NCBI GenBank assembly: GCA_017609105.1
Contig: JAFCEQ010000001.1
Location: forward strand, 47,407-111,406
DNA: 64,000 nucleotides
Direction: 5' to 3'
From: Candidatus Parvarchaeota archaeon
Lineage (GTDB): Archaea; Nanobdellota; Nanobdellia; JAFCGN01
In this document: piece by piece, positions 8,435 through 58,970 of the stretch
Layout: every line of letters begins with the position of its first letter
How positions within the stretch are numbered: position 1 is the first letter of the stretch
The notes under the pieces: generated by a model
The model's input: the letters and a program-made list of their open reading frames with translations, nothing else
Told to the model about the DNA's origin: nothing
The model's database searches: none
Made by a program: the position numbers and the translations under genes

Positions 8435-9112
8435 TTAAGTTATCTTTTTTTTCATTTTTTTTAATTCTTTTAAATAACAAACAATAGTTTTTTCTAAACT
8501 TTTTGTGTTGAGCACGCTCGCATCTAAGATTAAATCAAAAGGTGAGAGGTCTTTTCCGTATTCAAAACCGTATAATTTTTTGTATAATTCTGTGTTTTTT
8601 TTATCTCTTTCTTTAATCACTTCTCTCGCTTCTTCAAATGATAAGTTATCTCTGAGCATGCAACGATTAATACGTGTTTCATCATCTACTTTAAGCCATA
8701 TTTTTATACCGTACTTGCTTAGCCAAGGCATTGTCCAACTTGTAATTACAATATTTCCGTTGTTAATTTTTTTAATAAGTTTTTCATCAATTCTTTTATC
8801 TATTTTGTTGTCTTTTTTTCTTAGAGCAAGGAATTTCATTCCTTCTTTAGTACTCCACCAATTTTTTTTATTAACTTCTTCTTTTGAGAACCCGTCTTCA
8901 ATTGCAATTTCTTTCATTGCTTTTTTAATCATGTCTCCTCCATCAACATAAGTTAAACCCATTTTTTTTGAAATTTTTTTTGCAATTGTTGATTTACCAC
9001 TGCAAGGCATTGCTGAAATAATTATTGAAAGCTTATTATTTGGGAAATAAGTGTTTAATCGCGTTTTATTAAGAATTTTTAAATCTTTTATTTTTACTTG
9101 TTTTAATATCAT
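8435..9112 (-). CDS. cmk: Cytidylate kinase (archaeal type)
   Basis: P-loop SAMPCSGKSTIAKKI, and conserved placement between rpl34e and rpl14e. The ORF carries ~34 extra N-terminal codons, and the true start is probably the Met preceding PCSGKST (near 9010). Confidence 0.75.
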   Translation of the reverse strand: MILKQVKIKDLKILNKTRLNTYFPNNKLSIIISAMPCSGKSTIAKKISKKMGLTYVDGGDMIKKAMKEIAIEDGFSKEEVNKKNWWSTKEGMKFLALRKKDNKIDKRIDEKLIKKINNGNIVITSWTMPWLSKYGIKIWLKVDDETRINRCMLRDNLSFEEAREVIKERDKKNTELYKKLYGFEYGKDLSPFDLILDASVLNTKSLEKTIVCYLKELKKMKKKIT

Positions 9113-14371: not shown

Positions 14372-14534
14372 TTTTCCACCAATTTCATTCTTAATTACTC
14401 TTTTATTTTACCTTATTTTTTTCCTGCCACCTTATTCTTTATTTTCTTTTTTCTCCTCTTGCTTACCTTATTTTTCTCTTCTCCATCCCCTATTTTTTGT
14501 TTTCTTTTTTCTCCCTTTGTTTTGCCTTATTTTT
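14372..14534. repeat. ~160-nt leader/intergenic element, copy A (5' of rpl18, 3' of rpl19e); near-identical to copy B
   Basis: catttttccaccaatttcattcttaattactcttttattttaccttatttttttcctgccaccttattctttattttcttttttctcctcttgcttaccttatttttctcttctccatcccctattttttgttttcttttttctccctttgttttgccttattttt matches 15166-15326 with only a few substitutions and indels. Confidence 0.7.
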
Positions 14535-15165: not shown

Positions 15166-15326
15166 TTATTCCACCATTTCATTCTTAATTATTCTTTTTT
15201 GCCTTATTTTTTTCCTGCCACCTTATTCTTTATTTTCTTTTTTCTCCTCTTGCTTACCTTATTTTTCTCTTCTCCATCCCTATTCTTTGTTTTCTTTTTT
15301 CTCCCTTTGTTTTGCCTTATTTTTTA
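15166..15326. repeat. ~160-nt leader/intergenic element, copy B (5' of rpl19e, 3' of rpl32e)
   Basis: Near-identical to 14372-14534, including the SD-like GGTGG immediately upstream of the ATG. Confidence 0.7.
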
Positions 15327-24042: not shown

Positions 24043-25032
24043 CTACTGCTTGCTCTTTCTTGATATTTCAATTAATGATACATTTAATAATTTCCCGCTT
24101 GTTCTCTTGCCTGTTCTTAATTTAATTAATCTCTTAACAGGCCCTGGAACGCTTCCTTTAAGAAGCAAGTAATCATTTTTGACAAAACCATATTTTAAAA
24201 ATCCTCCTTCAGGATTTACTTCTTCTGGTTTATCTCCAATTTTAAGTATTACTTTATTATGTTCTGTTCTTGCAAAATAACCTAATTGCCCGTGCTGTGG
24301 GGTTCTATAAGATGTTTTAGCAGGATGCCATGAACCAAGAGAACCAACTTTTCTTCTGTTTTTTTCAGCCTTGTTTTGAAGAAGCTTAACATGAAATCTT
24401 TTTACACTGCCTTGGAATCCTTTTCCTTTTGTGATTGATGCTACATCAATTTCTTCTTTTTCTTCAAAAACATCAGAAACTCTTAATTCTTTTCCAAGAT
24501 TCTCTTTTGCATATTCAATTTTTTCATTAATGCTTCCGCCAAGCCCGATTTCAATTAATTCAGGCTTCTTCTTAAAACCTATTTTATTAGGTTGTGTTAA
24601 ACCATATAATGTTAAATCATGAATTTTATCTTTGTTTTCTTCAATAATTTTGTTCAAATCCTTATCTTTCTTTATTGGACTTAATAATCTTTTAAAGAAA
24701 TTATCTTCATTTTTCATTAAGTATTGAGTTAAAACTTTTATTCCTACAGGCGTTTTCTCATAAAATCTTATGCCAACAATTTTAATAGGAGGGCATTCAA
24801 TTACTGTTACTGGAATGCTTATTTCTTTTTTTCTTGTTGAACTTATTTTTCTATTATCATAAGCAATAACATGAGTCATTCCTGACTTATACCCTGCAAA
24901 AAGCAATGGTTTGACTTCACTAATTTCTGGAAATTTTCTTATTCTTGCTGTTGTTCTCTTGCTTCTTTTATGAGGCCAAAACTGCAAGCTACCTCTATGT
25001 GGTCTCTTTCTTCTGCTTATTTTATGTCCCAT
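24043..25032 (-). CDS. rpl3: 50S ribosomal protein uL3
   Basis: MGHKISRRKRPHRGSLQFWPHKRS...AGYKSGMTHV is the uL3 N-terminus, and it is the first gene of the operon. Confidence 0.9.
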   Translation of the reverse strand: MGHKISRRKRPHRGSLQFWPHKRSKRTTARIRKFPEISEVKPLLFAGYKSGMTHVIAYDNRKISSTRKKEISIPVTVIECPPIKIVGIRFYEKTPVGIKVLTQYLMKNEDNFFKRLLSPIKKDKDLNKIIEENKDKIHDLTLYGLTQPNKIGFKKKPELIEIGLGGSINEKIEYAKENLGKELRVSDVFEEKEEIDVASITKGKGFQGSVKRFHVKLLQNKAEKNRRKVGSLGSWHPAKTSYRTPQHGQLGYFARTEHNKVILKIGDKPEEVNPEGGFLKYGFVKNDYLLLKGSVPGPVKRLIKLRTGKRTSGKLLNVSLIEISRKSKQ

Positions 25033-25110: not shown

Positions 25111-25316
25111 TTTTATTTCTTTTTAAACCTAACTGGCATTAAAAACACGTAGAATTTTTGATTACGAAACCTTCATTTACTTCCTAAAATTAATTAGTTT
25201 ATAAATATTGCTCTTTATTTTTAACAAAAATAAGCATGCATTAATTTGAAAAATAAGTTTATTGAAAAATAAGTTTAAAAGAAATTTATTTAATAAAAGA
25301 ATTTTAACAATTAATT

Positions 25317-25853
25317 ATGAAAAAAGATTCAAATAATAATTTAGAAGAAATGCTTAGTGAATTTTATCCAGAATTAGATAATAAAACAAAAGATAATATT
25401 CAATATTTTTGTGCAATTGGGGAATTCAAAATTTATGATCCTAAAAAATTCTTTAAATATTATAAAAAGGATTATAACTTATTTTTTTCAGAAACAATTG
25501 TTAGATTAAATGATTTAACTAATTTGCTTTACCCATTTTTTGAGTTTGAAAATTTTATTCAAAAAAAAAGTGAAGAAAAAAAATTGTATGTAGATGTTTT
25601 TTATAAAAAAGGCACAAAAACAATAAAGTATTTAACAAATCTTCTTCAAGCAGTTATTGTTGCAAGTAAGATTTCTTCTCCAGAAAATATTCTTGCTTTT
25701 GGCTCATATGATAGCAATGAAGTTAAAGTAATTGAAATTGAAAGATTTTCAGATAAAACAAGACAAGAAATTGAAATGTTAGCTCAATTTCATAAAAAAC
25801 CATTTTTATTTCAAAACAATAAATCAAAATATGATTATGAGGGTTTTGTTTAA
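25317..25853 (+). CDS. Hypothetical protein
   Basis: 178-aa ORF with no motifs. A 17-nt tandem direct repeat (ttgaaaaataagttta x2) lies ~45 nt upstream. Confidence 0.35.
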   Translation: MKKDSNNNLEEMLSEFYPELDNKTKDNIQYFCAIGEFKIYDPKKFFKYYKKDYNLFFSETIVRLNDLTNLLYPFFEFENFIQKKSEEKKLYVDVFYKKGTKTIKYLTNLLQAVIVASKISSPENILAFGSYDSNEVKVIEIERFSDKTRQEIEMLAQFHKKPFLFQNNKSKYDYEGFV

Positions 25854-25877: not shown

Positions 25878-27419
25878 TCAAATTTTTTCTTTAAGAAGGG
25901 CTTCAATAGAATACCTATTCTCTCTTGTTATTTTTTCAGGATTTGTTACATGAAGAAAGGTTATTTTTTCTTCATCAAATCCTATCCTATTTCTTTCCTC
26001 ATCTATTTTTACTACTTTCTTCCATCTTCTCATATCTTCTTTTATTTCTTTTAATTCAATGTTTAAGTCTTTCAATATTTTTCTGAATTCTTTTCTAAAG
26101 TTTTTAAAATTTTCAGGAAGTTTATTATCTTCTTTTCTTATCCTATAAGCAGTAATTTCTTTTTTATTAGGAGGTTTAACTTTTACTTCTTCTAATAACC
26201 CTGCTTTTTTTGCAACGAGCAAGTGCAAATTAATTGAATTTTTTGAAGCATGCATAAATGTTTGTAGATAATTCTTTGTTTTGAATGATTTATGTCTTAA
26301 AATATCTGTTAAAAAATAAAATCTAAGCAATGAAGAATTATTACTGAATTCTTGATTATATTCAAAAGATGACATAAAATATTTGTATTCTTCTTCATTC
26401 ATTACTTGAGAAGCAAGTTCACTTAATGGTGGAATAAAGAATTTCACAGCTTCAAAATTATAATTTTTTTCTTTTAAAACAGCGGATTTGCTGAGAATTG
26501 CTTCAATTCCTACTGTTCTTATCTCACCAATTCTTCTGAAACCTCCTTTCGGGTCTCTTGTTAAAACTTTTCTCCCCCTATTAATTAATGAGTACACACT
26601 CATTGGATCGCAGAAATCATTTATTAAACAAGAATTACAAGCATTTTTATCATAAATATCTAAAAAAGTTGGCTTGTTTTTTTTTAATTCTAAAAGCTCG
26701 GAATGCGTTTTTCTAACTTTCTCTTCAAGAAGTTCTTCTCTTCCAAACCTTTGTATTTTAATTCCAGAACTCTCCTTATTAAATAAAAAGTTAATTAAAA
26801 GTCCTTCATCAGACGGAAGATTATATTCTTCTTCGCAAAGAATATTATATAATAAAAGTTGTAATTTAGGTTTTTCAAAATTTGTTTCATTTACTTTTAA
26901 ATCAATAGGCACTGCTTGTTTCTTGTTTTCTCCCCAAAACTCAATTTTATCAGGAACTCCTACAAGTTTTTTATTTAATCCTTTTAATCTTTCAATTCTT
27001 CCATCAAGAAGGATTGCGTCCTCAAAAACTCCTTCCACAGAGTATAAATTAAATTTCTCGTCTAATGCAGAAACATACCTAGCGTAGTTCAAAGAAGATA
27101 ATTCATTAATAAACGCGTTTATCACGTTTTCTTGCAATTCAAAAGATATGAGTTTTGGTTTTGGAATTAAAAAATTGTTTTCATATGATTCTTTGAAATC
27201 TGAAAAAAAGATTTCATCATTAAATCTTTTATGAACAAGTTGTTTATCAATCCTAATTGATTGAGAAAACAAATTATGAGCAAGAGTATCAATTTCAATT
27301 ACAGGAGTGTAAATATGCCTTCCTTTTCCTAACCAATGCCTCCAAAGCCAATAATTATAACATGTGCTGAAATCCACGAGTTCTGACACACTATTATAAT
27401 TTCTTCTGCCTTTTTTCAT
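25878..27419 (-). CDS. Cas4-like / RecB-family PD-(D/E)xK nuclease with Fe-S cysteines, fused to a ~250-aa C-terminal domain of unknown function
   Basis: N-terminal Cys in SELVDFSTCYNYWLW, motif II ILLDGRIERL, motif III VPIDLKV, QxxxY motif KLQLLLY, and three-Cys cluster CNSCLINDFC (C-x2-C-x5-C) at ~aa 260. The protein continues ~250 aa further. Confidence 0.6.
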   Translation of the reverse strand: MKKGRRNYNSVSELVDFSTCYNYWLWRHWLGKGRHIYTPVIEIDTLAHNLFSQSIRIDKQLVHKRFNDEIFFSDFKESYENNFLIPKPKLISFELQENVINAFINELSSLNYARYVSALDEKFNLYSVEGVFEDAILLDGRIERLKGLNKKLVGVPDKIEFWGENKKQAVPIDLKVNETNFEKPKLQLLLYNILCEEEYNLPSDEGLLINFLFNKESSGIKIQRFGREELLEEKVRKTHSELLELKKNKPTFLDIYDKNACNSCLINDFCDPMSVYSLINRGRKVLTRDPKGGFRRIGEIRTVGIEAILSKSAVLKEKNYNFEAVKFFIPPLSELASQVMNEEEYKYFMSSFEYNQEFSNNSSLLRFYFLTDILRHKSFKTKNYLQTFMHASKNSINLHLLVAKKAGLLEEVKVKPPNKKEITAYRIRKEDNKLPENFKNFRKEFRKILKDLNIELKEIKEDMRRWKKVVKIDEERNRIGFDEEKITFLHVTNPEKITRENRYSIEALLKEKI

Positions 27420-27447
27420 TTTAATTACAACTTATAAATTCAAAACA

Positions 27448-27471
27448 CTTTTTTTAAAGATTACTAATTAA
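27448..27471 (-). promoter_or_regulatory. Promoter-like element shared with tuf (22-nt identity ttttttaaagattactaattaa on the plus strand; TTAATTAGTAATCTTTAAAAAA in gene orientation)
   Basis: Identical 22-mer at 43537-43558 upstream of EF-1alpha. It ends in the TATA-like CTTTAAAAA ~35 nt before the Cas4-like ATG. Confidence 0.35.
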
Positions 27472-27579
27472 CAACTAAGGCCTCTTAATAATAAAAGTGT
27501 ATAATTCAATATATGTTTTATAAATCAATATTCAATGTGAATAATTGTTTAAAAAAGATGACAGGATTTTATAGTAATA

Positions 27580-30096
27580 ATGAGTGGTGGATTGGAGGAA
27601 AATTTAGAAGATTTAGTTAAAGAGAACGTGTTTGGTTCTAAAATTTTTAGAAAAAACAGTCAAAAAATAATAGCGATTAGCAATCCTTTTTTTAGTGATA
27701 AAGGCATAGCTGTTTCTTTAGAAAGATGGGAGGATTATTGTAAAGTAATTGATAAGTTTTTTGATAAAAAAGGAGATTTTTTTATTCTTGGAGGAGCAAT
27801 AAGCCCAACAAGATTTCATTATTCTAAAAAAAATGTTAAAACCTTGGAACAAGAAATGATGCCTAAGAACCTTGAAGAAATGTTTCCTACTAAGAAAGCT
27901 TTTGAACAAAAACTTTACTATAAAATTGAAAGATTAAAAAAATATATAGAAAAAATTCCTGCAAAAGCAAATATTTATTATCTTATGACAGACACTGATA
28001 ATAAAACAATTGAGGACATCACAAATTTTTATGTTGACTTATTTACTCAAAGAATAACATTAATAAAAAAGAATTTAGATAAATTCCAAGAACTTTATTT
28101 AAAATGGGATGAATTTGATAATGAATTCCAACAAATATTAGAATTGCAAGCAGCAATAGGTAAAAAACTTGGTGGCAATCGTTCTGGTTTGGCAAAAACA
28201 AAAAATGAAAAAACAAAAAAAAGATTGGAAAAAAACATAAAGAGGTTGGAAAAAGAGTTAAAGAACGGGGAGAAAACTATTGAAAAATTTGAAAACAAAA
28301 AACAGAATTATTATAATAAAATAAAACAGAAGTTTGAATTTGTGAACAAATTAAATGAAGAATTAAAAAGCAAGAATTTGTTTTTTATGGAAAAAGAGTT
28401 AACAGATATTGTCAATTCTTTTAATGAAATCAATCCATATTCAGAGTCAATTCTTTCAGAAATAAGCGTTCTTGATTCAAAAATTAGTGATTATTTAAAT
28501 AATCTTGAAAGAAAAATCACTTTTAATGAATGGAATAAGAATTCAAGAATAACTAAAAGGGATTTACCAAATGATATTTTAGCTAAAATAAATGAAACAG
28601 CTAAAAGAGAATATGTTACTCTTTTAGAAAGTGCTGGACTGAATATTATAACACCTGAAATTAAAAAAGAATTAGTTGATAAATTAATTAATGTTTCTTA
28701 CACTCCAATGAGAGTGTTGAAATCTAATGTAAAGAATTTCAGACAAGAACTTGCTATAGAAAAAATGAATAGAGAGATTAAAGAGCGGGTTTTTTTAGTT
28801 GGGAATGATTATTGCTTTAGAGCTCAATCCTTTGTAGTTAATAATAAAGGAGATTTTGTTTATGAAATTACTGTAGGGCCTTTTTTTAATACAAAAAAAG
28901 CAAGAGAACTTTCAAAAAAAGGAATTAAAACAGAAGCAACAAAATTAGTTAATTCATTTGAATCAGTTCAAGGAATGGTTTTCATAGATTATGATCCGAA
29001 AACAACAGCAAGATTTTGTTTCTTACAGGATCATGAATTAGAAACATTTCTTCAACATTTAGAAAAAGAAGATAAAGAAAATTTATTATGCATTGCTCAT
29101 ATTTCAGACCAACATAATACAAAGAGAAATTCAAGAAGAGACCTAATTTTAGGAACAAAACTATTTTTAAGAGAAGATAATAGCCTTGAGAAATTAATTG
29201 AGACAGGAGATTTAACGCAAGGTGTTGGTAATTTCAGCGGAGAACAACTTGCAGGAGTTAATATGCGTCTTGAAGACCAAGTATATGTTGCTGCAAAATC
29301 ATTATTTAACATGTCACTTCCAATAATAAGAAGATCTAGATTAAAACAACCAATCACAACAATAGAAGGAAATCATGCAAAAGGAACAACAAGAATTGGT
29401 TTTAGACCTACTGTTGCTATAACAAATATTTGTAACTTAATTTATAGTATTTCAAACACAAATCAAACAATAAAAAAAACAATTGAAGTAGAAAAAAATG
29501 ATTTACTAATAGAAGAAGGTTTAATACCTCCAGAAAAACCGTTTTACACTGTTTTCTCAAACGGGCCTGAAACAGGAGGATTTATTGATTTTAAATTAAA
29601 GAATAATGAAAGTTTTGGACAAGCTTATGTTAGTCATAAAACTCCAGGAAGAGCTGATAAAGCAGACCCAACTTTAAGAGCTTTTTCTCATTTCAAGGAA
29701 TTAGGAAGATTAAATAAAAACGTTAGAATGGTGTATTTCGGGCACTCGCATCTTCCAGCAACAGCATTAATTGGCGGACTTCACTTGCAATGCGGCGGAA
29801 GTTATGAAGGAATGGATTACAATATTGAATTCCCTCACAAAAATGATTCTTCTTATGCTTACATGGCAGGATTCCCTCCTGCAGCAATGGGTTTTTGGAA
29901 GAACTATGTGGCTAAAGGCAATAATGGCATACAAGGGTTTGTTGTTTCAGAATTCATAAGCCACAAATTATTAGATAGAATAGTTAATGAATATAAAATA
30001 GAAGACAAAACAATTAGAGATATTTTAATTGAGAACGCACTAGAACCAAATGAACTTCCTTCTTCTATTCTTGCAAGATATAAGAAGATTATTTAA
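27580..30096 (+). CDS. Large protein with a K/E-rich coiled-coil segment and a C-terminal Mre11/SbcD-like metallophosphoesterase domain
   Basis: Motif I CIAHISDQHN (aa ~500), II ETGDLTQG (~541), III IEGNHA (~598), V/VI YFGHSHLP (~716). The spacing resembles Mre11. Coiled-coil KKRLEKNIKRLEKELKNGEKTIEKFENKKQNYYNKIKQKFEF at aa ~210-260. No Walker A. Confidence 0.55.
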   Translation: MSGGLEENLEDLVKENVFGSKIFRKNSQKIIAISNPFFSDKGIAVSLERWEDYCKVIDKFFDKKGDFFILGGAISPTRFHYSKKNVKTLEQEMMPKNLEEMFPTKKAFEQKLYYKIERLKKYIEKIPAKANIYYLMTDTDNKTIEDITNFYVDLFTQRITLIKKNLDKFQELYLKWDEFDNEFQQILELQAAIGKKLGGNRSGLAKTKNEKTKKRLEKNIKRLEKELKNGEKTIEKFENKKQNYYNKIKQKFEFVNKLNEELKSKNLFFMEKELTDIVNSFNEINPYSESILSEISVLDSKISDYLNNLERKITFNEWNKNSRITKRDLPNDILAKINETAKREYVTLLESAGLNIITPEIKKELVDKLINVSYTPMRVLKSNVKNFRQELAIEKMNREIKERVFLVGNDYCFRAQSFVVNNKGDFVYEITVGPFFNTKKARELSKKGIKTEATKLVNSFESVQGMVFIDYDPKTTARFCFLQDHELETFLQHLEKEDKENLLCIAHISDQHNTKRNSRRDLILGTKLFLREDNSLEKLIETGDLTQGVGNFSGEQLAGVNMRLEDQVYVAAKSLFNMSLPIIRRSRLKQPITTIEGNHAKGTTRIGFRPTVAITNICNLIYSISNTNQTIKKTIEVEKNDLLIEEGLIPPEKPFYTVFSNGPETGGFIDFKLKNNESFGQAYVSHKTPGRADKADPTLRAFSHFKELGRLNKNVRMVYFGHSHLPATALIGGLHLQCGGSYEGMDYNIEFPHKNDSSYAYMAGFPPAAMGFWKNYVAKGNNGIQGFVVSEFISHKLLDRIVNEYKIEDKTIRDILIENALEPNELPSSILARYKKII

Positions 30097-33457: not shown

Positions 33458-34093
33458 ATGGTAAAGGGTCTTGGGTGGTTGTTTAAATTAAATAATTGGT
33501 TTTCATCTATTTTTAAAAGAAAAAAAAGTGTTAAGTTAGGGCTTTACGGAAGCACTAATGCTGGGAAAACAACTCTCGCGAATAGAATAAGTCTTGATTG
33601 GCTTGGTGAGGAAGTAGGAAGTGTTAGTAATGTACCGCATGAAACAAGAAAAGTTCAGAAAAAAGAAAACATAACTATTGAAAGCGGGGGAAAAAAATTA
33701 AACATGACTTTAATTGACACTCCTGGAATTGCTACGCGCATTGATTTTGAAGATTTTAAGAAGTACGGAATTAAAACTAAAGAAGCAAAGAACAGGGCTA
33801 AAGAAGCAACTCAAGGAATCATTGAAGCAATAAAATGGCTTGATGACATGGATGTTGTGATTGCTGTGATGGACGCTACTCAAAATCCTTACACGCAAGT
33901 TAATCTCACGATTCTCGGCAATTTGGAAGCAAGAAAAACTCCAGTGATAATAGCAGCGAATAAAATTGATTTAAAAAATGCGAAAGTTAAAAGAATAGAA
34001 AATGCTTTCCCACAGTATAAAGTGATTGGTATTAGCGCAAAAAACGGAGATAATATTGAAGAATTGTACAAAGCAATATCCAAATTGGTTTGA
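33458..34093 (+). CDS. Small GTP-binding protein (Ras-like/Era-like GTPase)
   Basis: G1 GSTNAGKT, G3 DTPG, G4 ANKID, G5 SAK. Confidence 0.65.
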   Translation: MVKGLGWLFKLNNWFSSIFKRKKSVKLGLYGSTNAGKTTLANRISLDWLGEEVGSVSNVPHETRKVQKKENITIESGGKKLNMTLIDTPGIATRIDFEDFKKYGIKTKEAKNRAKEATQGIIEAIKWLDDMDVVIAVMDATQNPYTQVNLTILGNLEARKTPVIIAANKIDLKNAKVKRIENAFPQYKVIGISAKNGDNIEELYKAISKLV

Positions 34094-34479
34094 GGTGTTC
34101 AAAGATAAAAAAAGAACTTTCATTAAAATTCATAACATTTGAAAAATTTAATAACATGGATTCTCAAGAAATGATTGATTTTATCATAAAAGAAACAAGA
34201 AAAGAAAACATTATTGTGATTGAAGGAAGTCTTAATTCTATTGAAGAAGCTAATTTAATTCAAGCAACAATGGAGAACATTGACAAAAAGTTTCCTGGTA
34301 TTGAAATCGCTAATTTGCATTCAAATAATATTGAAAACCTGAGTTTTAAAGAAAAAGCTAAAAGGTTTATTGTGAACAAACTTTATGGTAAAAAAAGAGG
34401 GCTTACAATAATAGGGCCTGCTAAATTAGTGAAACAAATAAAAAGAGACCCTAATAATGTAATTCTTAAAATGATGTAA
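34090..34479 (+). CDS. Hypothetical protein translationally coupled to the GTPase (possible DUF2073-like partner)
   Basis: 4-nt overlap with the GTPase gene. Family assignment is from recalled archaeal gene-neighbourhood knowledge only. Confidence 0.35.
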   Translation: MRCSKIKKELSLKFITFEKFNNMDSQEMIDFIIKETRKENIIVIEGSLNSIEEANLIQATMENIDKKFPGIEIANLHSNNIENLSFKEKAKRFIVNKLYGKKRGLTIIGPAKLVKQIKRDPNNVILKMM

Positions 34480-34573
34480 TGAAACTTTCTTAACTAATTA
34501 GTTTTAATTTCTTTTAAGAAATCATAAGTGCATTAAAGAAATTGTTATAAAAGGAGGAATTAATTAATTAATT

Positions 34574-34924
34574 ATGCCACATAAATGCGTTAGGTGCGGT
34601 GCGTTATACCCTGATGGAGCTAAGCAATTGCTTAGTGGTTGTGATAATTGCAGTGGGAAATTCTTTTATTTTATAAAAGAAGAAAATCTTCATAAAAAAC
34701 TACCGAAATTAAGTCCAAAAGAAATTGAAGAAATAGAGAATGATATTAAAGAAGTTATTGGGATTAATGAGAAGAATGACAAACCCATTGTGTTAGATTT
34801 AGAAACAATCACTGTTTTGAAGCCTGGGAAGTACGAAATTGATCTTGTGAAAGTTTTTGATAAAAAACGCCCTGTTGTGTTCAAAATAAAGGACGGTAAA
34901 TACTTAATTGACTTAAGAAATTAA
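34574..34924 (+). CDS. Zn-ribbon-containing protein (possible COG3364/DUF2072-like)
   Basis: CVRCG...CDNCSG four-Cys Zn-ribbon at the N-terminus, following the GTPase pair. Confidence 0.4.
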   Translation: MPHKCVRCGALYPDGAKQLLSGCDNCSGKFFYFIKEENLHKKLPKLSPKEIEEIENDIKEVIGINEKNDKPIVLDLETITVLKPGKYEIDLVKVFDKKRPVVFKIKDGKYLIDLRN

Positions 34925-37028: not shown

Positions 37029-37565
37029 ATGGAAAGAGTTTGTGTATTTATTGATGGAAGCAATTTCTATTATGGATTGAAATCTCTTAATCTAAACAAC
37101 AAAAAATTGGATTTTTTTAAATTAGGTGAATTGCTTGCTGGAAAGAAAAGAAAACTTATAAGAGTTTACTACTACAATGCTCCTTTGGATCAAGCAATGA
37201 ATAAGGAAAAGTACAAGGCACAACAACGTTTTTTTGAAGAGTTGAAAAAAACAAAAAAAGTAAGTATTATTCTTTGCAGAATGCAAAAAAGGAAAGTAGA
37301 TGGGAGGATTATTTATGCTGTTAAAGAAGATGATATTCGTATTGCTGTAGATATGTTAAGATACGCTTATAACAATGCATACGATACTGCAATCCTTGTT
37401 AGTGGGGATGGAGATTTTGTGCCAGCAGTAACTGCTGTTCAAGAACTTGGAAAATCTGTTGAACACGCTTATTTTAAGATAGGTCATTCTTATCATTTAA
37501 GACAAATATGTGATGATTCCTTCCTGTTAGATAAGAAATTCATAAAAAAATGCTTAAAAGAATAA
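37029..37565 (+). CDS. NYN-domain (LabA/DUF88-like) PIN-fold ribonuclease
   Basis: VCVFIDGSNFYYG...AILVSGDGDFVPAV match the NYN acidic motifs. Confidence 0.65.
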   Translation: MERVCVFIDGSNFYYGLKSLNLNNKKLDFFKLGELLAGKKRKLIRVYYYNAPLDQAMNKEKYKAQQRFFEELKKTKKVSIILCRMQKRKVDGRIIYAVKEDDIRIAVDMLRYAYNNAYDTAILVSGDGDFVPAVTAVQELGKSVEHAYFKIGHSYHLRQICDDSFLLDKKFIKKCLKE

Positions 37566-37735: not shown

Positions 37736-38779
37736 TTATTTTTTTGATTTTTTATTCAAAGTGAATTTTAATATAAGAAAACCTGAAAAACAAATTATTG
37801 CAATAATAAAATTAATTATTGTTAAAGCAATAAGCGGTGTTCTCAATAAAGCATTAAAAATCATTGACATTACTGATTGCATTTCCACTGGGATGCTAAG
37901 TTTTAAACTTGAAAAAAACACTTCTTGTATTTTTGGGAAAAGCAGGATAATTGTTAAAGAAAAAACGCCTGAGAATAAAAAAGATGCGAAAAGTTTTTTG
38001 AAAATAGCTTTTGGAAACTCCCTCTTCTCAACAGAAAATAAGAATGCAATGCCAAGCAAAAACAAGATAATAACTGTAACTAATTTAGAGTAAAACCTTG
38101 TTTTATTATTAATTAATTCTAAAGAGATTGTGGAATTAAACGGTGAAATGCCTTGAGTAAGAGTGTTATTCACATTATTCGTGTATAATGAATAAAAAGT
38201 TTGATTAAGACATTGTTCTGGTTTTGAATACATTTTTAGGTCTTGACAATTCAAGCAAGGAACTTCAAAACCAAAAGAATTGTTTTCCTCGCAGAAATCA
38301 GAGAGAAGAGTTAAAAAAGTGTTTATTGAATTTATTCCTTCAATTTTATTCCTATAATTAATTACGCATTCAGAACCATTATTAAATTTTAATAAACTCT
38401 CGCAAGTAAAACAAGGAAGAGATGGCAAGGAATTAGAAGTTATGCCTTTAAAAGGAACACCATATACCTCGCAATCATGATGCATATCATTAAAATTTAT
38501 ACCATTAGATTGATTTAATTGATAGAGTTCAAGCAAAGGAGCAGTTAAGTTTGTTTTATCTAAGAGTAAAGGAATTAAACTATCCCCTGCTTTCATAATG
38601 GTTTCAAACAAGTAATTATAAGAGTAATAGTGATTTAATATAAGCATTATTATAAGTGAGGTTATTAAAATTACAGAAGTGTTTAAGCAAAAACCTGATG
38701 CAATTCTTCTTAAAAATTTTAACATATTAATAATGTATATTGCATAAATATTAAAATGTTTAGGAAGTTTTAACAACAT
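37736..38779 (-). CDS. Hypothetical multi-pass membrane protein with a Cys-containing extracytoplasmic region
   Basis: N-terminal TM, a central Cys-rich region, and C-terminal TM segments. Confidence 0.35.
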   Translation of the reverse strand: MLLKLPKHFNIYAIYIINMLKFLRRIASGFCLNTSVILITSLIIMLILNHYYSYNYLFETIMKAGDSLIPLLLDKTNLTAPLLELYQLNQSNGINFNDMHHDCEVYGVPFKGITSNSLPSLPCFTCESLLKFNNGSECVINYRNKIEGINSINTFLTLLSDFCEENNSFGFEVPCLNCQDLKMYSKPEQCLNQTFYSLYTNNVNNTLTQGISPFNSTISLELINNKTRFYSKLVTVIILFLLGIAFLFSVEKREFPKAIFKKLFASFLFSGVFSLTIILLFPKIQEVFFSSLKLSIPVEMQSVMSMIFNALLRTPLIALTIINFIIAIICFSGFLILKFTLNKKSKK

Positions 38780-39202: not shown

Positions 39203-39979
39203 ATGATGTTAAGAGTCACGCCTGAATTAAATGAGGTTAAGGATATAGTAAGTGTTGGTGTTAGGAATAAATGGTTAGTAGTATTAGTAGGAGTTTTCGG
39301 AGTGAATTATAAGGGCAGGGCTATTAGTGAATTAAGCTGTGGTGAGCGTTTACTGATTATTAAGCCGGATGGTTGCGTGTTAATTCATAATAGCGAGGGT
39401 GTTAATCCTATTAATTGGATGAGAGAGGGTTCAAGTATTAATGCAAAGCTTGATGAAGAAGTTCTTAACATTAAAGTTCTTAACATTAATCCTAGGGAGG
39501 AGTTAGTATTAAGGATTCAAAAAGTTAGCGTGGTCTTCACTAATGGTTTTAGTAGTGTTGGTGAGTTGCGCGTTATTGGGAGTGAAGCTGATATGGCAAG
39601 AAAGATTTATGAGAATCCCAGTGTTATCTCCAAGAATTTTAAGCCTGTTAGTTTGGAAGAGCAAACCAAGTACGGTTTCATTGATGTTCTTGGGTGTGAA
39701 GGAGAGGATTATGTGGTAGTGGAGTGCAAGCGTTATAGAGCTGGTTTAAGCGGGGTTCAACAATTACGCAGGTATGTTGAGAAGTTTAAGAAAGCGCGCG
39801 GGATTAATAATGTTAAAGGAGTTCTCGCAGCTCCAAGTATTACGAAGAACGCTTTTAAAATGCTTACTGATTGGGGTTTCAGTTATAAGCGTGTTGAACC
39901 TCCGATGCACTTAATTGGTGAGAAAACAGTTCAAGAAAAATTAAGTAAGTTCTTGCATGAGAATGAAACTAAGAATTAA
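39203..39979 (+). CDS. nucS: Endonuclease NucS / EndoMS (mismatch-specific RecB-like nuclease)
   Basis: The C-terminal domain GFIDVLGCEGEDYVVVECKRYRAGLSGVQQLRRYVEKF matches the NucS catalytic D...E.K + QxxxY core, and the size is ~250 aa. The gene is visibly G-rich compared with its neighbours. Confidence 0.65.
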   Translation: MMLRVTPELNEVKDIVSVGVRNKWLVVLVGVFGVNYKGRAISELSCGERLLIIKPDGCVLIHNSEGVNPINWMREGSSINAKLDEEVLNIKVLNINPREELVLRIQKVSVVFTNGFSSVGELRVIGSEADMARKIYENPSVISKNFKPVSLEEQTKYGFIDVLGCEGEDYVVVECKRYRAGLSGVQQLRRYVEKFKKARGINNVKGVLAAPSITKNAFKMLTDWGFSYKRVEPPMHLIGEKTVQEKLSKFLHENETKN

Positions 39980-39990
39980 AAAAAGTTTTT

Positions 39991-41091
39991 TTATTTCTCG
40001 TAAGCATTGATTATCTCAGCATAAGAGTATTCAGGGGTTTTGTAAACAAGTGTTTTCGCCCAAACCTTTAAAATAAATGGTTTATCCTGAACATTGTAAT
40101 TAATATCAAATTCAAAATCCCTCCACTCCTTGAATCCTTTTTCTTTTGAAAAAGAAATTTTTTCTGTCTTATTTGTTAATACACTCCCGTCTTCTCCTAT
40201 TAATTCAATCTTAACACTTGTTATGTTATAAACATCTATGAAACCAATTTTTTCTAATTCAACGTATAAATCTTTTTCTCCTACAAAAGGCAACCACTTT
40301 GGAGCATGAGAAGTTAATCCCCAATTATCTTCATAATGAGCTTCTTGCACTTCTTCTGGAAGGTCCTTGAATAAGGGCATGTCGCAGTAAATCTTGCCTC
40401 GCACTCTTGTTTTATTATTAATTATTTTATATGTTAAGTTCTCAATATTGCAAAGCGTGTTATATTCTGTTTTGTTTTCACTCCACTTAATTGTTTCAGG
40501 CATAGTATTGTTAAAGAATTTTTCAGAAATCTGAAATGTTTTATTACTTCCATTAGCATTAATGAGAATATAGCCTTTGCAAGAAGAAACAATAGAATCA
40601 TCCCTATTCTTAAATTGCAGAACATAAGGAACTCTTGTTGTAAACCAAGAAGAATGATTGCTAAGATTTGTTAAATTAATGTTAATATTTGTTTTAAGTG
40701 TTTTCTTGCCTTTAACAAAATTATCAGAAAGTGAAATGCTAATGCAATTAAAACAAGTATTTGAACTATTTTCTAAAAAAAGTTTTTCAAATCTTTGAAT
40801 CTCATAATCATCAGTTATTATTATTGACTCGTTTGGAATAACTTCAAGGAATTTATCATTGCAATAAACATTATCTGCTTTTACAGGAAGTGAAAAAACG
40901 CTTTTATTCATAATATCTGTGGCATTAATTGTAAGATTAAAATCAGTGCAAACTGGATTAGTTTCTTCAATATCTCTTGCACAACCTAAACCTTCTCTGT
41001 CAAAAACAACCATTCCTGTAGTATTAGTGCACCCAAATAAAAAAGAAACTAAGAAAATGCTAATAAAAAAAATCATTTCTTTTTTAATCAT
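39991..41091 (-). CDS. Secreted or lipoprotein-like hypothetical protein
   Basis: Signal-like N-terminus MIKKEMIFFISIFLVSFLFGCTNTTG, with many N-x-S/T sequons. Confidence 0.4.
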   Translation of the reverse strand: MIKKEMIFFISIFLVSFLFGCTNTTGMVVFDREGLGCARDIEETNPVCTDFNLTINATDIMNKSVFSLPVKADNVYCNDKFLEVIPNESIIITDDYEIQRFEKLFLENSSNTCFNCISISLSDNFVKGKKTLKTNININLTNLSNHSSWFTTRVPYVLQFKNRDDSIVSSCKGYILINANGSNKTFQISEKFFNNTMPETIKWSENKTEYNTLCNIENLTYKIINNKTRVRGKIYCDMPLFKDLPEEVQEAHYEDNWGLTSHAPKWLPFVGEKDLYVELEKIGFIDVYNITSVKIELIGEDGSVLTNKTEKISFSKEKGFKEWRDFEFDINYNVQDKPFILKVWAKTLVYKTPEYSYAEIINAYEK

Positions 41092-56637: not shown

Positions 56638-56757
56638 TCCCGCCTCCCGGATTCGAACCGGGAATCTCACGGTAACGGCTAATAAAGAACACGTGTTCGT
56701 GTTCAGCCCTTTAAACCTAACTACAGCCGTGCGCGTTAGCCATTACGCTAAGGCGGG
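56638..56757 (-). tRNA. tRNA-Tyr (anticodon GTA) with a 47-nt intron at the canonical 37/38 position
   Basis: Exons CCCGCCTTAGCGTAATGGCTAACGCGCACGGCTGTAG / ACCGTGAGATTCCCGGTTCGAATCCGGGAGGCGGGA. The C1-G72 pair is the archaeal Tyr identity element. Intron is TTAGGTTTAAAGGGCTGAACACGAACACGTGTTCTTTATTAGCCGTT. Confidence 0.75.
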
Positions 56758-57554: not shown

Positions 57555-58970
57555 TTAGTTTTCATTTTTTTTGCGAGCAATTAAGGTAACCATATTTGAT
57601 TTTCTTAAATAAGTTCCTGTTTTGTCTTTAACAAAAACTTGTGTTGATGGGAAAACAATAGTTCCAATTATGTTCATCGTGCTTTGTATCTTATATGATA
57701 AGTGGATTTCTTCTCTTGGATTCAAGTTCTCTAAATTCCATATTAATCTCTTGGTTTGCCCAACACTCTTGAGTTCTGGTTTTAAGGAACCAAAGGAGTG
57801 TATTTTTTTGACAAAGGAAGGAATTCTTTCCACAACTTTTATTTTTTTTAATTTTGTTGTTCCAACATTCCTAATAATAATGCTTACAGTAGCTTCTAAT
57901 TCTTTATCTTCCTGCTTGTAATGTTTTATTGTTTTTGTTACACTCACTTTTCTTGTATTAAGGACTAAAACCCATAGAATTCCTAAGATTAAGAAAGGAA
58001 GAAGTAATAAAGGCACATAAGTTATTGAATAAGAGTAAGTTATTTGAGAGTATTGAATTTCATTGTTCTTGATTTCAGACGGAGGTAATGAATTAATACT
58101 CCACACTAATGATGTGCCTTCTTTTTTTGAGCCTCCTCCATCAACAACTAAAAGAGATTCTAAGAAGGAAAGTTCTTGTTTTAAATCATAATTTTCTAAA
58201 CTTTTTGTGCCATTATTTATTAGAATTATGTTAATTGTTTTCCCAAAAATTGTTTCATTCTTTTGAGTTAAGATTACTGGTTCTGAAAAAGGTTCTATTT
58301 CTACATTTCTTATTTCAGAATTAATCGTGCTTCCATAAAGCGTTTCTTTTGTTTCAAGAGTGTATTCTCCAGGCGTGAAAAGGTATGGAAGTGTTAAAGA
58401 GAAAGTGTAATTCTTAGAACCAAGTTCTATTTCAATTTCTCTTTGAAAAGATGTTATGTTCTCATTGTCTTTGTAAAAAGTGATTAACAAGCTTATTGGC
58501 TTTTTTTTATAAGTGTTTGTTATTTCAAAAGTTAGATTAAAAGGTTTTCTTGGATTAATTTTTTGCGGAGCATTAATTACTTTAATCTTAATTAATTCAT
58601 GAAGAGGTAATTCCACATAAGTTTTAAAGGATTTGCTTAAAGAACCTGTGCCGTAATCAAAATAAATAGTGCTTGAATATGTTCCGAGTTTAACATCTCT
58701 TTCATTAACTCCTACCGATAAATTAACTAATTTGTTTCCCCCGCTTTCTAAAAAGAATCTGTAAGGAATAGCAGAATAACTTCCAAAAGATGGAAACATT
58801 AAAATCGTGTAAGTTCTGTTCTGTATTTCCTCGCTCGTTAAGTTTAATAAATAACGTGCTGTTTCTCCTGGAGCAACTCTATCATCAATAGGTATGATAT
58901 CTATTTTTAAACCATAAGAATATGAAAAAAGTGCGAAAAGTATTATAAAACCAATTATTGTTTTTCTCAT
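57555..58970 (-). CDS. Hypothetical surface protein (signal peptide, internal TM anchor)
   Basis: MRKTIIGFIILFALFSYSYG signal, and a TM segment ITYVPLLLLPFLILGILWVLVL near aa 330. Confidence 0.4.
   Translation of the reverse strand: MRKTIIGFIILFALFSYSYGLKIDIIPIDDRVAPGETARYLLNLTSEEIQNRTYTILMFPSFGSYSAIPYRFFLESGGNKLVNLSVGVNERDVKLGTYSSTIYFDYGTGSLSKSFKTYVELPLHELIKIKVINAPQKINPRKPFNLTFEITNTYKKKPISLLITFYKDNENITSFQREIEIELGSKNYTFSLTLPYLFTPGEYTLETKETLYGSTINSEIRNVEIEPFSEPVILTQKNETIFGKTINIILINNGTKSLENYDLKQELSFLESLLVVDGGGSKKEGTSLVWSINSLPPSEIKNNEIQYSQITYSYSITYVPLLLLPFLILGILWVLVLNTRKVSVTKTIKHYKQEDKELEATVSIIIRNVGTTKLKKIKVVERIPSFVKKIHSFGSLKPELKSVGQTKRLIWNLENLNPREEIHLSYKIQSTMNIIGTIVFPSTQVFVKDKTGTYLRKSNMVTLIARKKNEN

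What the first reader, a model, noticed from the sequence alone, without database searches (positions are those of the whole stretch)
25878..30096. Divergent two-gene nuclease module: Cas4-like Fe-S PD-(D/E)xK nuclease fusion plus a coiled-coil Mre11/SbcD-like phosphoesterase, with no CRISPR/cas context
The minus-strand gene 25878-27419 carries the full RecB/Cas4 signature: an N-terminal Cys (STCYNYWLW), motif II LLDGRIERL, motif III IDLK, QLLLY, and a C-x2-C-x5-C cluster. It is followed by ~250 extra residues of unknown function.

Head-to-head, 160 nt away, lies an 838-aa protein. Its last ~340 aa carry Mre11/SbcD-type phosphoesterase motifs (AHISDQH, GDL, GNH, GHSH) with Mre11-like spacing. 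Its first ~500 aa include a K/E-rich coiled-coil and no ATPase motif.

No Rad50, HerA, NurA, cas1/cas2 or repeat array is nearby. The pair sits in a ~5-kb non-core island wedged between the rpl3 operon promoter and archease-rtcB.

A nuclease plus phosphoesterase pair with a coiled-coil arm resembles a minimal DNA-end-processing or defence module (Mre11-like + AddB/Cas4-like) of a type I do not recognise as described.
Basis: partly seen in the sequence, partly recalled or inferred. Interest (0 to 1): 0.8.

Follow-up and report, generated by a model that had tools for sequence, protein, structure and literature searches.

The report
Two neighbouring archaeal nucleases, not a module
A tiny (DPANN) archaeon carries, side by side, an ordinary stand-alone Cas4-like iron-sulfur nuclease and a rare 838-residue protein whose catalytic end most resembles the proofreading exonuclease subunit of archaeal DNA polymerase D, but the two genes are neighbours only in this one lineage, so they are not a conserved two-gene system.

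Summary
Both genes are under purifying selection (dN/dS 0.16-0.19).

**Protein 1 (513 aa)** passes the Pfam PDDEXK_1 cutoff. It has the conserved C...CxxCx5C cysteines and (D/E)xK/QxxxY motifs. It is a stand-alone ("solo") Cas4-like nuclease, a class already described as common in small archaeal genomes without CRISPR. It has a C-terminal extension that matches DUF7821 in its orthologues.

**Protein 2 (838 aa)** belongs to a very rare archaeal family: 10 remote relatives among 1.84 billion representative proteins.
- All calcineurin-type metal-binding motifs are invariant in the family.
- An OB-like beta domain precedes the catalytic domain.
- An N-terminal alpha/beta domain and a roughly 65-residue-per-arm helical hairpin are unique to the family.
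- There is no ATPase motif and no zinc hook.

None of the remote protein 2 loci has a Cas4-like neighbour. The pair co-occurs only in sister genomes with identical synteny, inside housekeeping context. There is no cas gene, defence gene or mobile-element sign.

**Verdict:** two neighbouring nucleases. Protein 2 is a new variant of the DP1/Mre11-class phosphodiesterases.

The parts
25317..25853 (+). Small ORF (178 aa) of unknown function. It is a conserved neighbour of protein 1 (P1) in the sister genomes only.
   Evidence: 43% identity to L001 7767-8273. dN/dS is 0.55. No Pfam, NCBIfam, PADLOC or PHROG hit. Absent from all remote protein 2 (P2) loci.
25878..27419 (-). P1: a stand-alone Cas4-like (Pfam PF12705) PD-(D/E)xK nuclease with a predicted 4Fe-4S cluster and a C-terminal extension. 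513 aa.
   Evidence: PDDEXK_1 scores 29.7 bits against a cutoff of 22. PADLOC Cas4 models give E = 4e-8. dN/dS is 0.19.
26607..27392 (-). P1 nuclease domain, aa 10-271. Features: C20; G-V-P-D157; D173-x-K175; Q187-x3-Y191; C261-x2-C264-x5-C270.
   Evidence: The Pfam match covers model positions 3-247 of 247. All listed residues are invariant in the 65%-identical orthologue.
25881..26582 (-). P1 C-terminal extension, aa 280-513. It is DUF7821-related. From the sequence pattern alone it is possibly a winged-helix DNA-binding region followed by a helical tail.
   Evidence: The orthologues in L001 and L014 pass the DUF7821 cutoff (24.0 and 25.0 bits against 23). The window copy is below detection. 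The winged-helix reading is inference only.
27420..27579 (.). 160-nt AT-rich divergent intergenic region shared by P1 and P2.
   Evidence: Sequence read. Only chance-level promoter-like matches were found with a bacterial consensus. Archaeal promoters were not tested.
27580..30096 (+). P2: 838-aa member of a rare archaeal family. Architecture: N-domain, helical hairpin, helical region, OB-like domain, then an active phosphodiesterase domain.
   Evidence: Family found. AlphaFold model has pLDDT 79.3 and pTM 0.78. dN/dS is 0.16.
27601..27984 (+). P2 N-terminal alpha/beta domain, aa 8-135. It is family-specific. Conserved features include 'GDxFIxGG', 'SKxExxRL' and 'PxNVxxHY'.
   Evidence: Conserved in 10 of 12 family members. 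Most 10-residue blocks have pLDDT 81-96; blocks covering aa 81-110 are lower (44-57). No Pfam match. No detectable similarity to the C-terminal domain by hhalign.
27991..28371 (+). P2 antiparallel helical hairpin, helices aa 138-206 and 210-264. It is K/E/N-rich and has no zinc hook.
   Evidence: Secondary structure and pLDDT of 84-92. Composition is K 20% and E 12%, with no CxxC.
28390..28779 (+). P2 helical region, aa 271-400. It contains the family-invariant Y345 and the 'TKRxLP' motif.
28789..29028 (+). P2 OB-like beta domain, aa 404-483. Its order of elements is b1-b2-b3, two helices, b4-b5. It carries the invariant P434-F435 and G465.
   Evidence: Secondary-structure order comes from the model. 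The DP1 and B-subunit matches align more residues (240-255) than other metallophosphoesterases (163-206). The OB assignment is an inference, because model coordinates could not be inspected.
29083..29979 (+). P2 calcineurin-like phosphodiesterase domain, aa 502-800. Motifs: I D510-x-H512; II G543-D544; III G597-N598-H599; IV H686; V G721-H722-x-H724.

Best explanation
These are two separately distributed DNA-processing enzymes that happen to be divergent neighbours in one DPANN ('Parvarchaeota'-labelled) lineage. They are not a conserved two-gene system.

**Protein 1 (P1)** is a stand-alone Cas4-like (PF12705) PD-(D/E)xK nuclease.
- It is predicted to hold a 4Fe-4S cluster on C20/C261/C264/C270.
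- It is predicted to cleave DNA with a metal bound by D157/D173/K175, like Cas4 and AddB end-processing nucleases.
- A C-terminal DUF7821-type extension probably adds DNA or partner binding.

**Protein 2 (P2)** is a catalytically competent two-metal phosphodiesterase.
- Its OB-like-plus-PDE module is built like the PolD proofreading subunit DP1.
- I infer that it is a Mn/Fe-dependent 3'-5' exonuclease acting on single-stranded or frayed DNA 3' ends. H599 would be the proton donor and the OB-like domain would hold the strand.
- The family-specific N-domain and the roughly 65-residue-per-arm helical hairpin would serve oligomerisation or partner docking.

**Shown:** gene reality, selection, family membership, motif conservation, fold ranking, and lack of conserved linkage.

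**Inferred:** the Fe-S cluster, the DNA substrate, the polarity, the OB role, and the role of the hairpin.
For: **P1.**
- Pfam PDDEXK_1 scores above its cutoff over the full model. Nine PADLOC Cas4 models match.
- The Cys and catalytic motifs are conserved.
- Solo Cas4 and PF12705 nucleases outside CRISPR loci are described as over-represented in small archaeal genomes (PMC5704561).

**P2.**
- An exhaustive HMMER search gives 10 remote relatives, most of them 800-960 aa with the same architecture.
- All seven metal ligands and the catalytic His are invariant.
- 3 relatives pass the Pfam Metallophos cutoff and 5 of 12 match at E < 0.1.
- The model has pLDDT 79 and pTM 0.78.
- Foldseek's top hits are PolD chain A entries, E = 4e-5 with 408 alignment columns.
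- Viral-structure hits include 'DNA polymerase II small subunit' proteins.
- DP1 is an OB-plus-PDE 3'-5' exonuclease whose nearest structural relative is Mre11 (PMC4996933).

**Independence of the two genes.**
- No P1-like gene is present in any remote P2 locus.
- The pair occurs only in fully syntenic sister contigs.

**Housekeeping context.**

**Purifying selection.** dN/dS is 0.19 for P1 and 0.16 for P2, against 0.16 for archease and 0.08 for rtcB.
Against: - The window P2 itself has no Pfam metallophosphatase hit.
- The C-terminal family profile (A5) matches no PDB sequence at E <= 10; the full-length profile (A4) matches only coiled-coil and helical-bundle chains.
- The OB assignment could not be checked on coordinates.
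- No biochemical data exist for any family member.
- A functional link between P1 and P2 in this lineage cannot be excluded. They share a 160-nt divergent control region, and two nucleases of opposite expected polarity would be complementary.
- Flanks of several remote loci are short: L005, L007, L008, L012, L013 and L016.
- P1's own remote relatives could not be surveyed.
Confidence: 0.6

Rival explanations
1. Protein 1 (P1) and protein 2 (P2) would form a dedicated two-component DNA-end-processing or defence module. P1 would be a Cas4/AddB-like 5' nuclease and P2 a coiled-coil Mre11-like 3' nuclease, co-regulated from the shared divergent promoter.
For: - The genes are head-to-head, 160 nt apart.
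- The arrangement is kept in two further contigs of a sister lineage, at 65% and 77-78% protein identity.
- Both are predicted DNA nucleases with complementary expected polarities.
Against: - The sister contigs are syntenic over the whole 20 kb, so adjacency there carries no extra information.
- None of the nine independent loci with remote P2 homologues has a P1-like gene, and seven of them show the upstream side.
- P2 has no defence-model hit.
- The neighbourhood has no defence or mobile genes.
- There are no viral relatives.
Confidence: 0.2
2. P2 is not a nuclease. It would be a calcineurin-like phosphoesterase acting on a small molecule or a phosphoprotein, such as a cyclic nucleotide, a dinucleoside polyphosphate or a glycerophosphodiester. 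The helical hairpin would then serve as a scaffold or localisation device.
For: - Foldseek ranks GpdQ and Rv0805 directly after PolD.
- The metal motifs are common to the whole superfamily.
Against: - Mre11 from five organisms and SbcD from two are all among the top 40.
- A beta domain with OB-like strand order directly precedes the PDE domain.
Confidence: 0.2
3. P2 is a polymerase-associated subunit. It would be a divergent paralogue of DP1 or the B-subunits that docks onto a DNA polymerase catalytic subunit (PolB or DP2) and supplies proofreading or scaffolding in these reduced genomes.
For: - The best structural matches are DP1 and the B-subunits of Pol delta, alpha and epsilon.
- Some DPANN lineages are reported to have rearranged PolD/PolB subunit sets (PMC12680538).
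- The genes sit in information-processing neighbourhoods.
Against: - No family member was labelled with Pfam DNA_pol_E_B (PF04042).
- No polymerase gene is adjacent in any locus.
- The family is extremely rare, with 11 clusters in 1.84 billion representatives. That does not fit a core replisome part.
- No known B-subunit has the N-domain and hairpin.
Confidence: 0.1
4. The roughly 5-kb stretch is a horizontally acquired island, carrying mobile-element or defence cargo.
For: - G+C is lower (0.21-0.27) than in the flanking r-protein operon and rtcB (0.30-0.35).
- The three genes have very few relatives.
Against: - Other non-ribosomal parts of the window have equally low G+C, 0.25-0.29.
- There are no flanking repeats beyond chance, and no adjacent tRNA or integrase.
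- The insertion point and content are the same in the sister lineage at dS of about 0.9-1.3, with purifying selection.
- There are no phage, PHROG or viral-contig relatives.
Confidence: 0.05

Closest known systems
PolD small subunit DP1 (P. abyssi, PDB 5IHE) and the eukaryotic polymerase B-subunits (Pol delta p50, Pol alpha B, Pol epsilon B)
   Same: - A beta/OB-like domain sits next to a calcineurin-like PDE domain.
- As in DP1, and unlike the eukaryotic B-subunits, all metal ligands and the catalytic His of motif III are intact.
   Different: - There is no sequence-level match to PF04042 or to any PDB chain.
- A 400-residue N-terminal part (alpha/beta domain, helical hairpin, helical region) has no counterpart.
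- No DP2 or polymerase gene is nearby.
- The family is very rare rather than universal in archaea.
- In DP1 the OB domain is inserted within the N-terminal part of the PDE domain (PMC4996933). Whether the same topology holds here could not be checked.
Mre11 / SbcD nucleases
   Same: - The same five phosphoesterase motifs are present, with the catalytic His after Asn in motif III.
- A long coiled-coil is part of the Mre11-Rad50 and SbcCD machines.
   Different: - They rank below DP1 and the B-subunits.
- No Mre11_DNA_bind or SbcD_C domain was detected.
- No Rad50/SbcC gene is adjacent.
- Here the coiled-coil sits in the nuclease polypeptide itself, is short (about 65 residues per arm), and has no zinc hook and no ATPase head.
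Solo Cas4 / PF12705 Cas4-like nucleases (Hudaiberdiev et al. 2017, PMC5704561)
   Same: - P1 passes the PF12705 cutoff and matches Cas4 models.
- It has the one-plus-three Cys pattern and the (D/E)xK and QxxxY motifs.
- It lies outside any CRISPR-cas locus, in a small archaeal genome.
   Different: - It is below the curated cutoffs of Cas4 proper: PF01930 18.8 against 22.7, and TIGR00372 25 against 65.
- It carries a C-terminal DUF7821-type extension of about 240 aa, not a helicase fusion.
- Only one close cluster of relatives was found.
Phage stand-alone DP1/Mre11-like phosphoesterases (for example Bxb1 gp47, a recombination directionality factor)
   Different: The phage proteins are short (about 250-470 aa) and lack the N-domain and hairpin. 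There is no sequence relationship to P2.

Membership tests
PD-(D/E)xK nuclease, Pfam PF12705 (PDDEXK_1; Cas4-like/AddB-like) | Profile score above the curated cutoff over the whole domain | tested here: met
   29.7 bits against 22, aa 10-271, model positions 3-247 of 247. The orthologue scores 29.8 bits.
PD-(D/E)xK nuclease, Pfam PF12705 (PDDEXK_1; Cas4-like/AddB-like) | Catalytic D...(D/E)xK plus QxxxY, and four Cys (one N-terminal plus CxxCx5C) for a 4Fe-4S cluster | tested here: met
   D157, D173-x-K175, Q187..Y191 and C20, C261, C264, C270 are present and invariant in the 65% orthologue. The Fe-S cluster itself is not testable here.
Cas4 proper (PF01930 / TIGR00372) | Score above the family's curated cutoff | tested here: not met
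   PF01930 scores 18.8 against 22.7. TIGR00372 scores 25 against 65.
Cas4 proper (PF01930 / TIGR00372) | Location in a CRISPR-cas locus, with cas1/cas2 and a repeat array | tested here: not met
   The 64-kb window has no array. Neighbours have no cas hits.
Calcineurin-like metallophosphoesterase superfamily (PF00149) | Five motifs: DxH, GD, GNH(D/E), H, GHxH | tested here: met
   All are present in protein 2 (P2) and invariant in 12 family members.
Calcineurin-like metallophosphoesterase superfamily (PF00149) | Profile score above the curated cutoff | tested here: inconclusive
   The window protein has no hit. Relatives P0005, P0006 and P0010 score 24.4, 33.9 and 23.8 bits against 21.5, and 5 of 12 members match at E < 0.1.
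Calcineurin-like metallophosphoesterase superfamily (PF00149) | Metallophosphoesterase fold | tested here: met
   [not shown]
Mre11 / SbcD | Mre11 or SbcD as the best structural or sequence match | tested here: not met
   [not shown]
Mre11 / SbcD | Accessory capping or DNA-binding domain (PF04152 Mre11_DNA_bind, or PF12320 SbcD_C) | tested here: not met
   No such Pfam hit was found in P2 or in any of 11 relatives.
Mre11 / SbcD | Partner Rad50/SbcC ATPase gene adjacent | tested here: not met
   None is present in the window neighbourhood or in any related locus. Presence elsewhere in the genome is not testable.
PolD DP1 / polymerase B-subunit family (PF04042) | Profile match to DNA_pol_E_B | tested here: not met
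   No hit was found in P2 or its relatives.
PolD DP1 / polymerase B-subunit family (PF04042) | OB domain combined with the PDE domain | tested here: inconclusive
   [not shown]
PolD DP1 / polymerase B-subunit family (PF04042) | Complex with a polymerase catalytic subunit (DP2 or a PolB C-terminal domain) | not testable with these tools
   No polymerase gene is present in any locus.
Rad50 / SMC-type coiled-coil ATPases | Walker A/B ATPase head and a zinc hook or hinge at the coiled-coil apex | tested here: not met
   The family has no Walker A and no CxxC, apart from a chimeric EF-Tu fragment in P0012 and a non-conserved match in P0007. The NCBIfam ASRP match is 18 bits against a cutoff of 300.
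Known anti-phage defence systems (PADLOC) | Match to a defence-system protein model, and a defence-island context | tested here: not met
   P2 has only LeoB at E = 0.069. P1 matches only Cas4 models. Neighbours have no defence hits, apart from a pVip-kinase/VakA model match to the 8435-9112 ORF, probably a nucleotide kinase.

The most novel reading that the evidence does not exclude
The protein 2 (P2) family would be a third, previously unrecognised branch of the DP1/B-subunit (OB plus phosphodiesterase) lineage that has kept an active site but left the polymerase. It would work as a self-contained, coiled-coil-bearing 3'-5' DNA-end exonuclease that stands in for Mre11-Rad50 in a few genome-reduced DPANN archaea. 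In this particular lineage it would have recruited a stand-alone Cas4-like 5' nuclease as a partner.
Probability: 0.1. Interest if true: 0.75.

Novelty: new variant of a known kind. Interest (0 to 1): 0.42.

Why it matters
If the fold assignment holds, protein 2 (P2) shows that the OB-plus-phosphodiesterase module can exist as an active enzyme outside a polymerase, in a new domain setting. Until now that module was known from the PolD proofreading subunit and from the inactive B-subunits of eukaryotic replicative polymerases. That bears on how DP1, the B-subunits and Mre11 are related, and on how DPANN archaea with minimal genomes process DNA ends.

The negative result also matters. The attractive 'Cas4 + Mre11-like module' is a neighbourhood coincidence confined to one lineage, so it should not be propagated as a new defence or repair system.

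Tried and rejected
1. AlphaFold on the 2-sequence alignment gave pLDDT 35 and was unusable. It was redone with 12 sequences.
2. The word-indexed homology search with the family alignment returned only the two close sequences, probably because coiled-coil words swamped it.
3. The PDB sequence and profile searches gave nothing for either protein. Full-length protein 2 (P2) hit only coiled-coil artefacts.
4. NCBIfam gave no hit on any of the 12 family C-terminal domains.
5. The genome-contig scan with the 12-sequence alignment failed for lack of a conserved 7-mer. The rerun with the 2-sequence alignment found only the Parvarchaeota sister MAG.
6. The metagenome scan with protein 1 (P1) re-found only the known sister contig.
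7. I tested whether the N-terminal domain is a degenerate duplicate of the phosphoesterase half. hhalign gave probability 0.1%, so the idea is rejected at sequence level.
8. Tests for a mobile-element or viral origin all came back empty: PHROGs, phage tblastn, viral contig scans and flanking repeats.
9. The AFDB Foldseek library was unavailable.
10. I looked for a conserved neighbour of the P2 family. None was found. An AAA_18 gene follows it in 2 loci only.

Full report
**1. Observation**

The two ORFs are as described: 25878..27419 (-), 513 aa, and 27580..30096 (+), 838 aa. They lie head-to-head with 160 nt between them. I call them protein 1 (P1) and protein 2 (P2).

To the left are a 178-aa ORF (25317..25853, +) and the rpl3-led ribosomal protein operon. 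To the right are rtcB and archease.

P2 has no Walker A motif and no CxxC.

The window has no CRISPR array. Its only repeats are low-complexity K/E-coding stretches. The surrounding genes are housekeeping:
- a methyltransferase, the OapA-type GTPase, OapB and OapC;
- MinD/ParA, a NYN-domain protein and NucS;
- SecY, EF1A and Cbf5/TruB.

Both genes are real and constrained. Against the orthologues in a sister contig, dN/dS is 0.19 for P1 and 0.16 for P2. That compares with 0.16 for archease and 0.08 for rtcB and L3.

**2. Organism and relatives**

The word-indexed search of 5.8 billion proteins found one relative for each protein, at 65% identity for P1 and 77% for P2. Both are on the same 135-kb metagenomic contig.

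That contig has exactly the same gene order from the ribosomal operon through rtcB, archease, the methyltransferase and OapA/B. A genome-collection scan found the same arrangement in a MAG titled 'Candidatus Parvarchaeota archaeon', which is a DPANN archaeon. These contigs are syntenic throughout, so the conserved adjacency of P1 and P2 in them does not show functional linkage.

**3. Protein 1**

- Pfam PDDEXK_1 (PF12705) matches aa 10-271 over the full model at 29.7 bits (cutoff 22). Cas_Cas4 (PF01930) and TIGR00372 are below their cutoffs. Nine PADLOC Cas4 models match aa 137-278 with E down to 4e-8.
- C20 and the C261-x2-C264-x5-C270 cluster are invariant in the orthologue. So are D157 (GVPDKIEF), D173-x-K175 and Q187-x3-Y191.
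This is an inference.
- The C-terminal 240 aa match Pfam DUF7821 just above cutoff in the two orthologues (24-25 bits against 23). The window copy is below detection. No paper mentions that DUF.
- Hudaiberdiev et al. 2017 (PMC5704561) describe this class: Cas4-family nucleases outside CRISPR loci, over-represented in small-genome archaea without CRISPR, with PF12705-type members not CRISPR-associated.

P1 is therefore a new member of a known kind.

**4. Protein 2**

*Sequence searches.* Pfam, NCBIfam, PADLOC, PHROGs and PDB sequence searches give nothing significant for the window protein.

An exhaustive HMMER search with aa 400-838 against 1.84 billion cluster representatives found only 10 further proteins, with E from 3e-36 to 4e-8. 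Most are 800-960 aa with the match at the C-terminus.

*Family conservation.*
- The full-length alignment shows that the N-terminal domain of about 160 aa is also conserved.
- The columns invariant in all 12 sequences (21-30% identity) include D510, H512, G543, D544, G597, N598, H599, H686, G721, H722 and H724. These are exactly the five calcineurin-type motifs, including the catalytic His that follows Asn in motif III.
- Three relatives pass the Pfam Metallophos cutoff, and 5 of 12 match at E < 0.1.

Superfamily membership and catalytic competence are therefore well supported, even though the window protein fails the Pfam test on its own.

*Structure model.* AlphaFold with two sequences failed (pLDDT 35). 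With the 12-sequence family alignment it gave pLDDT 79.3 and pTM 0.78. The secondary-structure map shows:

| Region (aa) | Element |
|---|---|
| 8-135 | alpha/beta domain |
| 138-206 and 210-264 | two long helices forming a hairpin |
| 271-400 | further helices |
| 404-483 | beta domain with strand order b1-b2-b3, two helices, b4-b5 (OB-like) |
| 502-800 | phosphodiesterase domain |

*Fold ranking.*
- Foldseek against the PDB ranks three P. abyssi PolD entries, chain A (DP1), first, at E = 4e-5 with 408 alignment columns. GpdQ, Rv0805 and SMPDL3 follow. Mre11 is not in the top 50.
- Next come MJ0936 (14.4, 163 residues), M. jannaschii Mre11 (14.2, 196 residues), further Mre11s (13.1-12.3), SbcD (12.4 and 11.0), and the Pol alpha and epsilon B-subunits (12.7-12.3).
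- The longer alignments, at higher rmsd, for the OB-plus-PDE proteins fit a two-domain match.
- Viral model hits include phage proteins annotated 'DNA polymerase II small subunit'.

Sauguet et al. 2016 (PMC4996933) describe DP1 as an OB domain combined with a PDE domain, with Mre11 as its closest structural relative.

The family lacks Mre11 and SbcD accessory domains, has no Rad50-type ATPase or zinc hook, and does not match PF04042. hhalign finds no similarity between the N-domain and the PDE domain.

**5. Is it a module?**

I fetched the genomic context of all ten remote P2 homologues: L003-L013 and L016, nine independent loci after merging duplicates.

All are archaeal housekeeping neighbourhoods. 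They contain ribosomal proteins, eIF2-alpha, EF1A, GatD/E, SecD/F, fibrillarin/Nop5, aminoacyl-tRNA synthetases, and DnaG-type Toprim proteins with Hjc. The neighbours differ from locus to locus.

- tblastn of P1 and of the small ORF at E <= 10 finds them only in the sister contigs.
- A scan of all ORFs of at least 100 aa for CxxCx5C finds the Cas4-type signature only in P1 and its close orthologues.
- Seven of the loci include the upstream side, where P1 sits in the window.

A lineage-specific partnership cannot be excluded, but nothing positive supports it beyond adjacency.

Nothing points to defence or mobility:
- P2 has no PADLOC hit.
- Neither protein has a PHROG, phage or viral-contig relative.
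- There are no flanking repeats beyond chance, no integrase and no adjacent tRNA.
- The low G+C is shared with other non-ribosomal parts of the window.

**6. Mechanism (best estimate)**

*P1.* A Cas4/AddB-like, Fe-S-stabilised, metal-dependent DNA nuclease, probably processing ssDNA ends. Its C-terminal extension would bind DNA or a partner.

*P2.* A two-metal phosphodiesterase that most likely removes nucleotides from DNA 3' ends, as DP1 and Mre11 do. An adjacent OB-like domain would hold single-stranded DNA. The N-domain and helical hairpin would mediate self-association or docking.

*What is shown:* family, motifs, fold ranking, selection and context.

*What is inferred:* substrate, polarity, the OB role, the Fe-S cluster and any partnership.

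*Rivals:* a true two-gene module (0.2), a non-nuclease phosphoesterase (0.2), a polymerase-associated B-subunit paralogue (0.1), and a mobile or defence island (0.05).

**7. Novelty and score**

P1 is ordinary. P2 belongs to a rare, undescribed family (11 clusters in 1.84 billion representatives). It combines a known catalytic module with a new N-terminal architecture, so it is a new variant of a known kind. The headline claim of a novel nuclease pair is not supported.

Interest is 0.42. It would be a moderate curiosity for specialists in archaeal replication and repair. It rests on a 12-sequence AlphaFold model and has no biochemical evidence.

Noticed in passing
L001 17063-21298 (compare window 34090-34924): The sister contig carries an insertion between oapB and oapC: a SLFN_AlbA_2/HATPase_c_4 gene plus two HEPN / nucleotidyltransferase pairs, which are toxin-antitoxin or defence-type genes. 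In the window oapB and oapC abut. This is a real variable island, unlike the region of the finding.
   Followed up: no
window 25246-25277: A perfect tandem duplicate of a 16-mer (TTGAAAAATAAGTTTA, two copies) lies in the intergenic region between rpl3 and the 178-aa ORF. It could be a regulatory or promoter element.
   Followed up: no
window 14416-14472 and 15207-15263: An exact 57-nt direct repeat sits inside the ribosomal-protein cluster, among T/C-rich (K/E-coding on the other strand) low-complexity repeats.
   Followed up: no
window 56638-56757 (-): Rfam calls a 120-nt tRNA (55 bits) that ARAGORN does not report. It is probably an intron-containing archaeal tRNA.
   Followed up: no
window 24043-25032; L003 1-732; L006 12288-13909; L016 92-550; L013 321-2374: Genes of the 838-aa protein's family lie within a few kb of translation-gene clusters in five of the ten contexts examined (the window plus nine remote loci): the L3 operon, S12/S7, S10/EF1A, S7, and L1/L10/L12. 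This may be chance in tiny genomes, or a remnant of ancestral position.
   Followed up: partly
L013 5053-5982 and 6048-7619; L016 1911-3887: In L013 the family gene is split into two ORFs, with the N-terminal part matching the upstream ORF. In L016 the called protein (P0012) starts with an EF-Tu GTP-binding fragment, so it is probably a chimeric gene call or an assembly artefact.
   Followed up: partly
L006 11141-11671; L008 3667-4113 and 4110-4991: A small AAA_18 (nucleotide-kinase-like) gene follows the family gene closely downstream in two unrelated loci (in L006 a 104-aa ORF lies between them). L008 additionally has a second, 293-aa Metallophos gene right after it.
   Followed up: no
window 2616-4982, 37736-38779, 39991-41091, 57555-58970, 60957-62546: Five sizeable ORFs (788, 347, 366, 471 and 529 aa) have no Pfam or PADLOC match at the thresholds used.
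   Followed up: no
window 8435-9112 (-): A 225-aa ORF in the region downstream of SecY matches PADLOC 'pVip-kinase' and VakA models (E = 4e-8 and 7e-4). It is most likely an ordinary adenylate or cytidylate kinase, not a defence gene.
   Followed up: no
window 39203-39979 and 37029-37565: NucS (mismatch endonuclease) and a NYN-domain ribonuclease are encoded about 7-9 kb downstream of the finding. They are other nucleic-acid enzymes in the neighbourhood, and both are well-known families.
   Followed up: no
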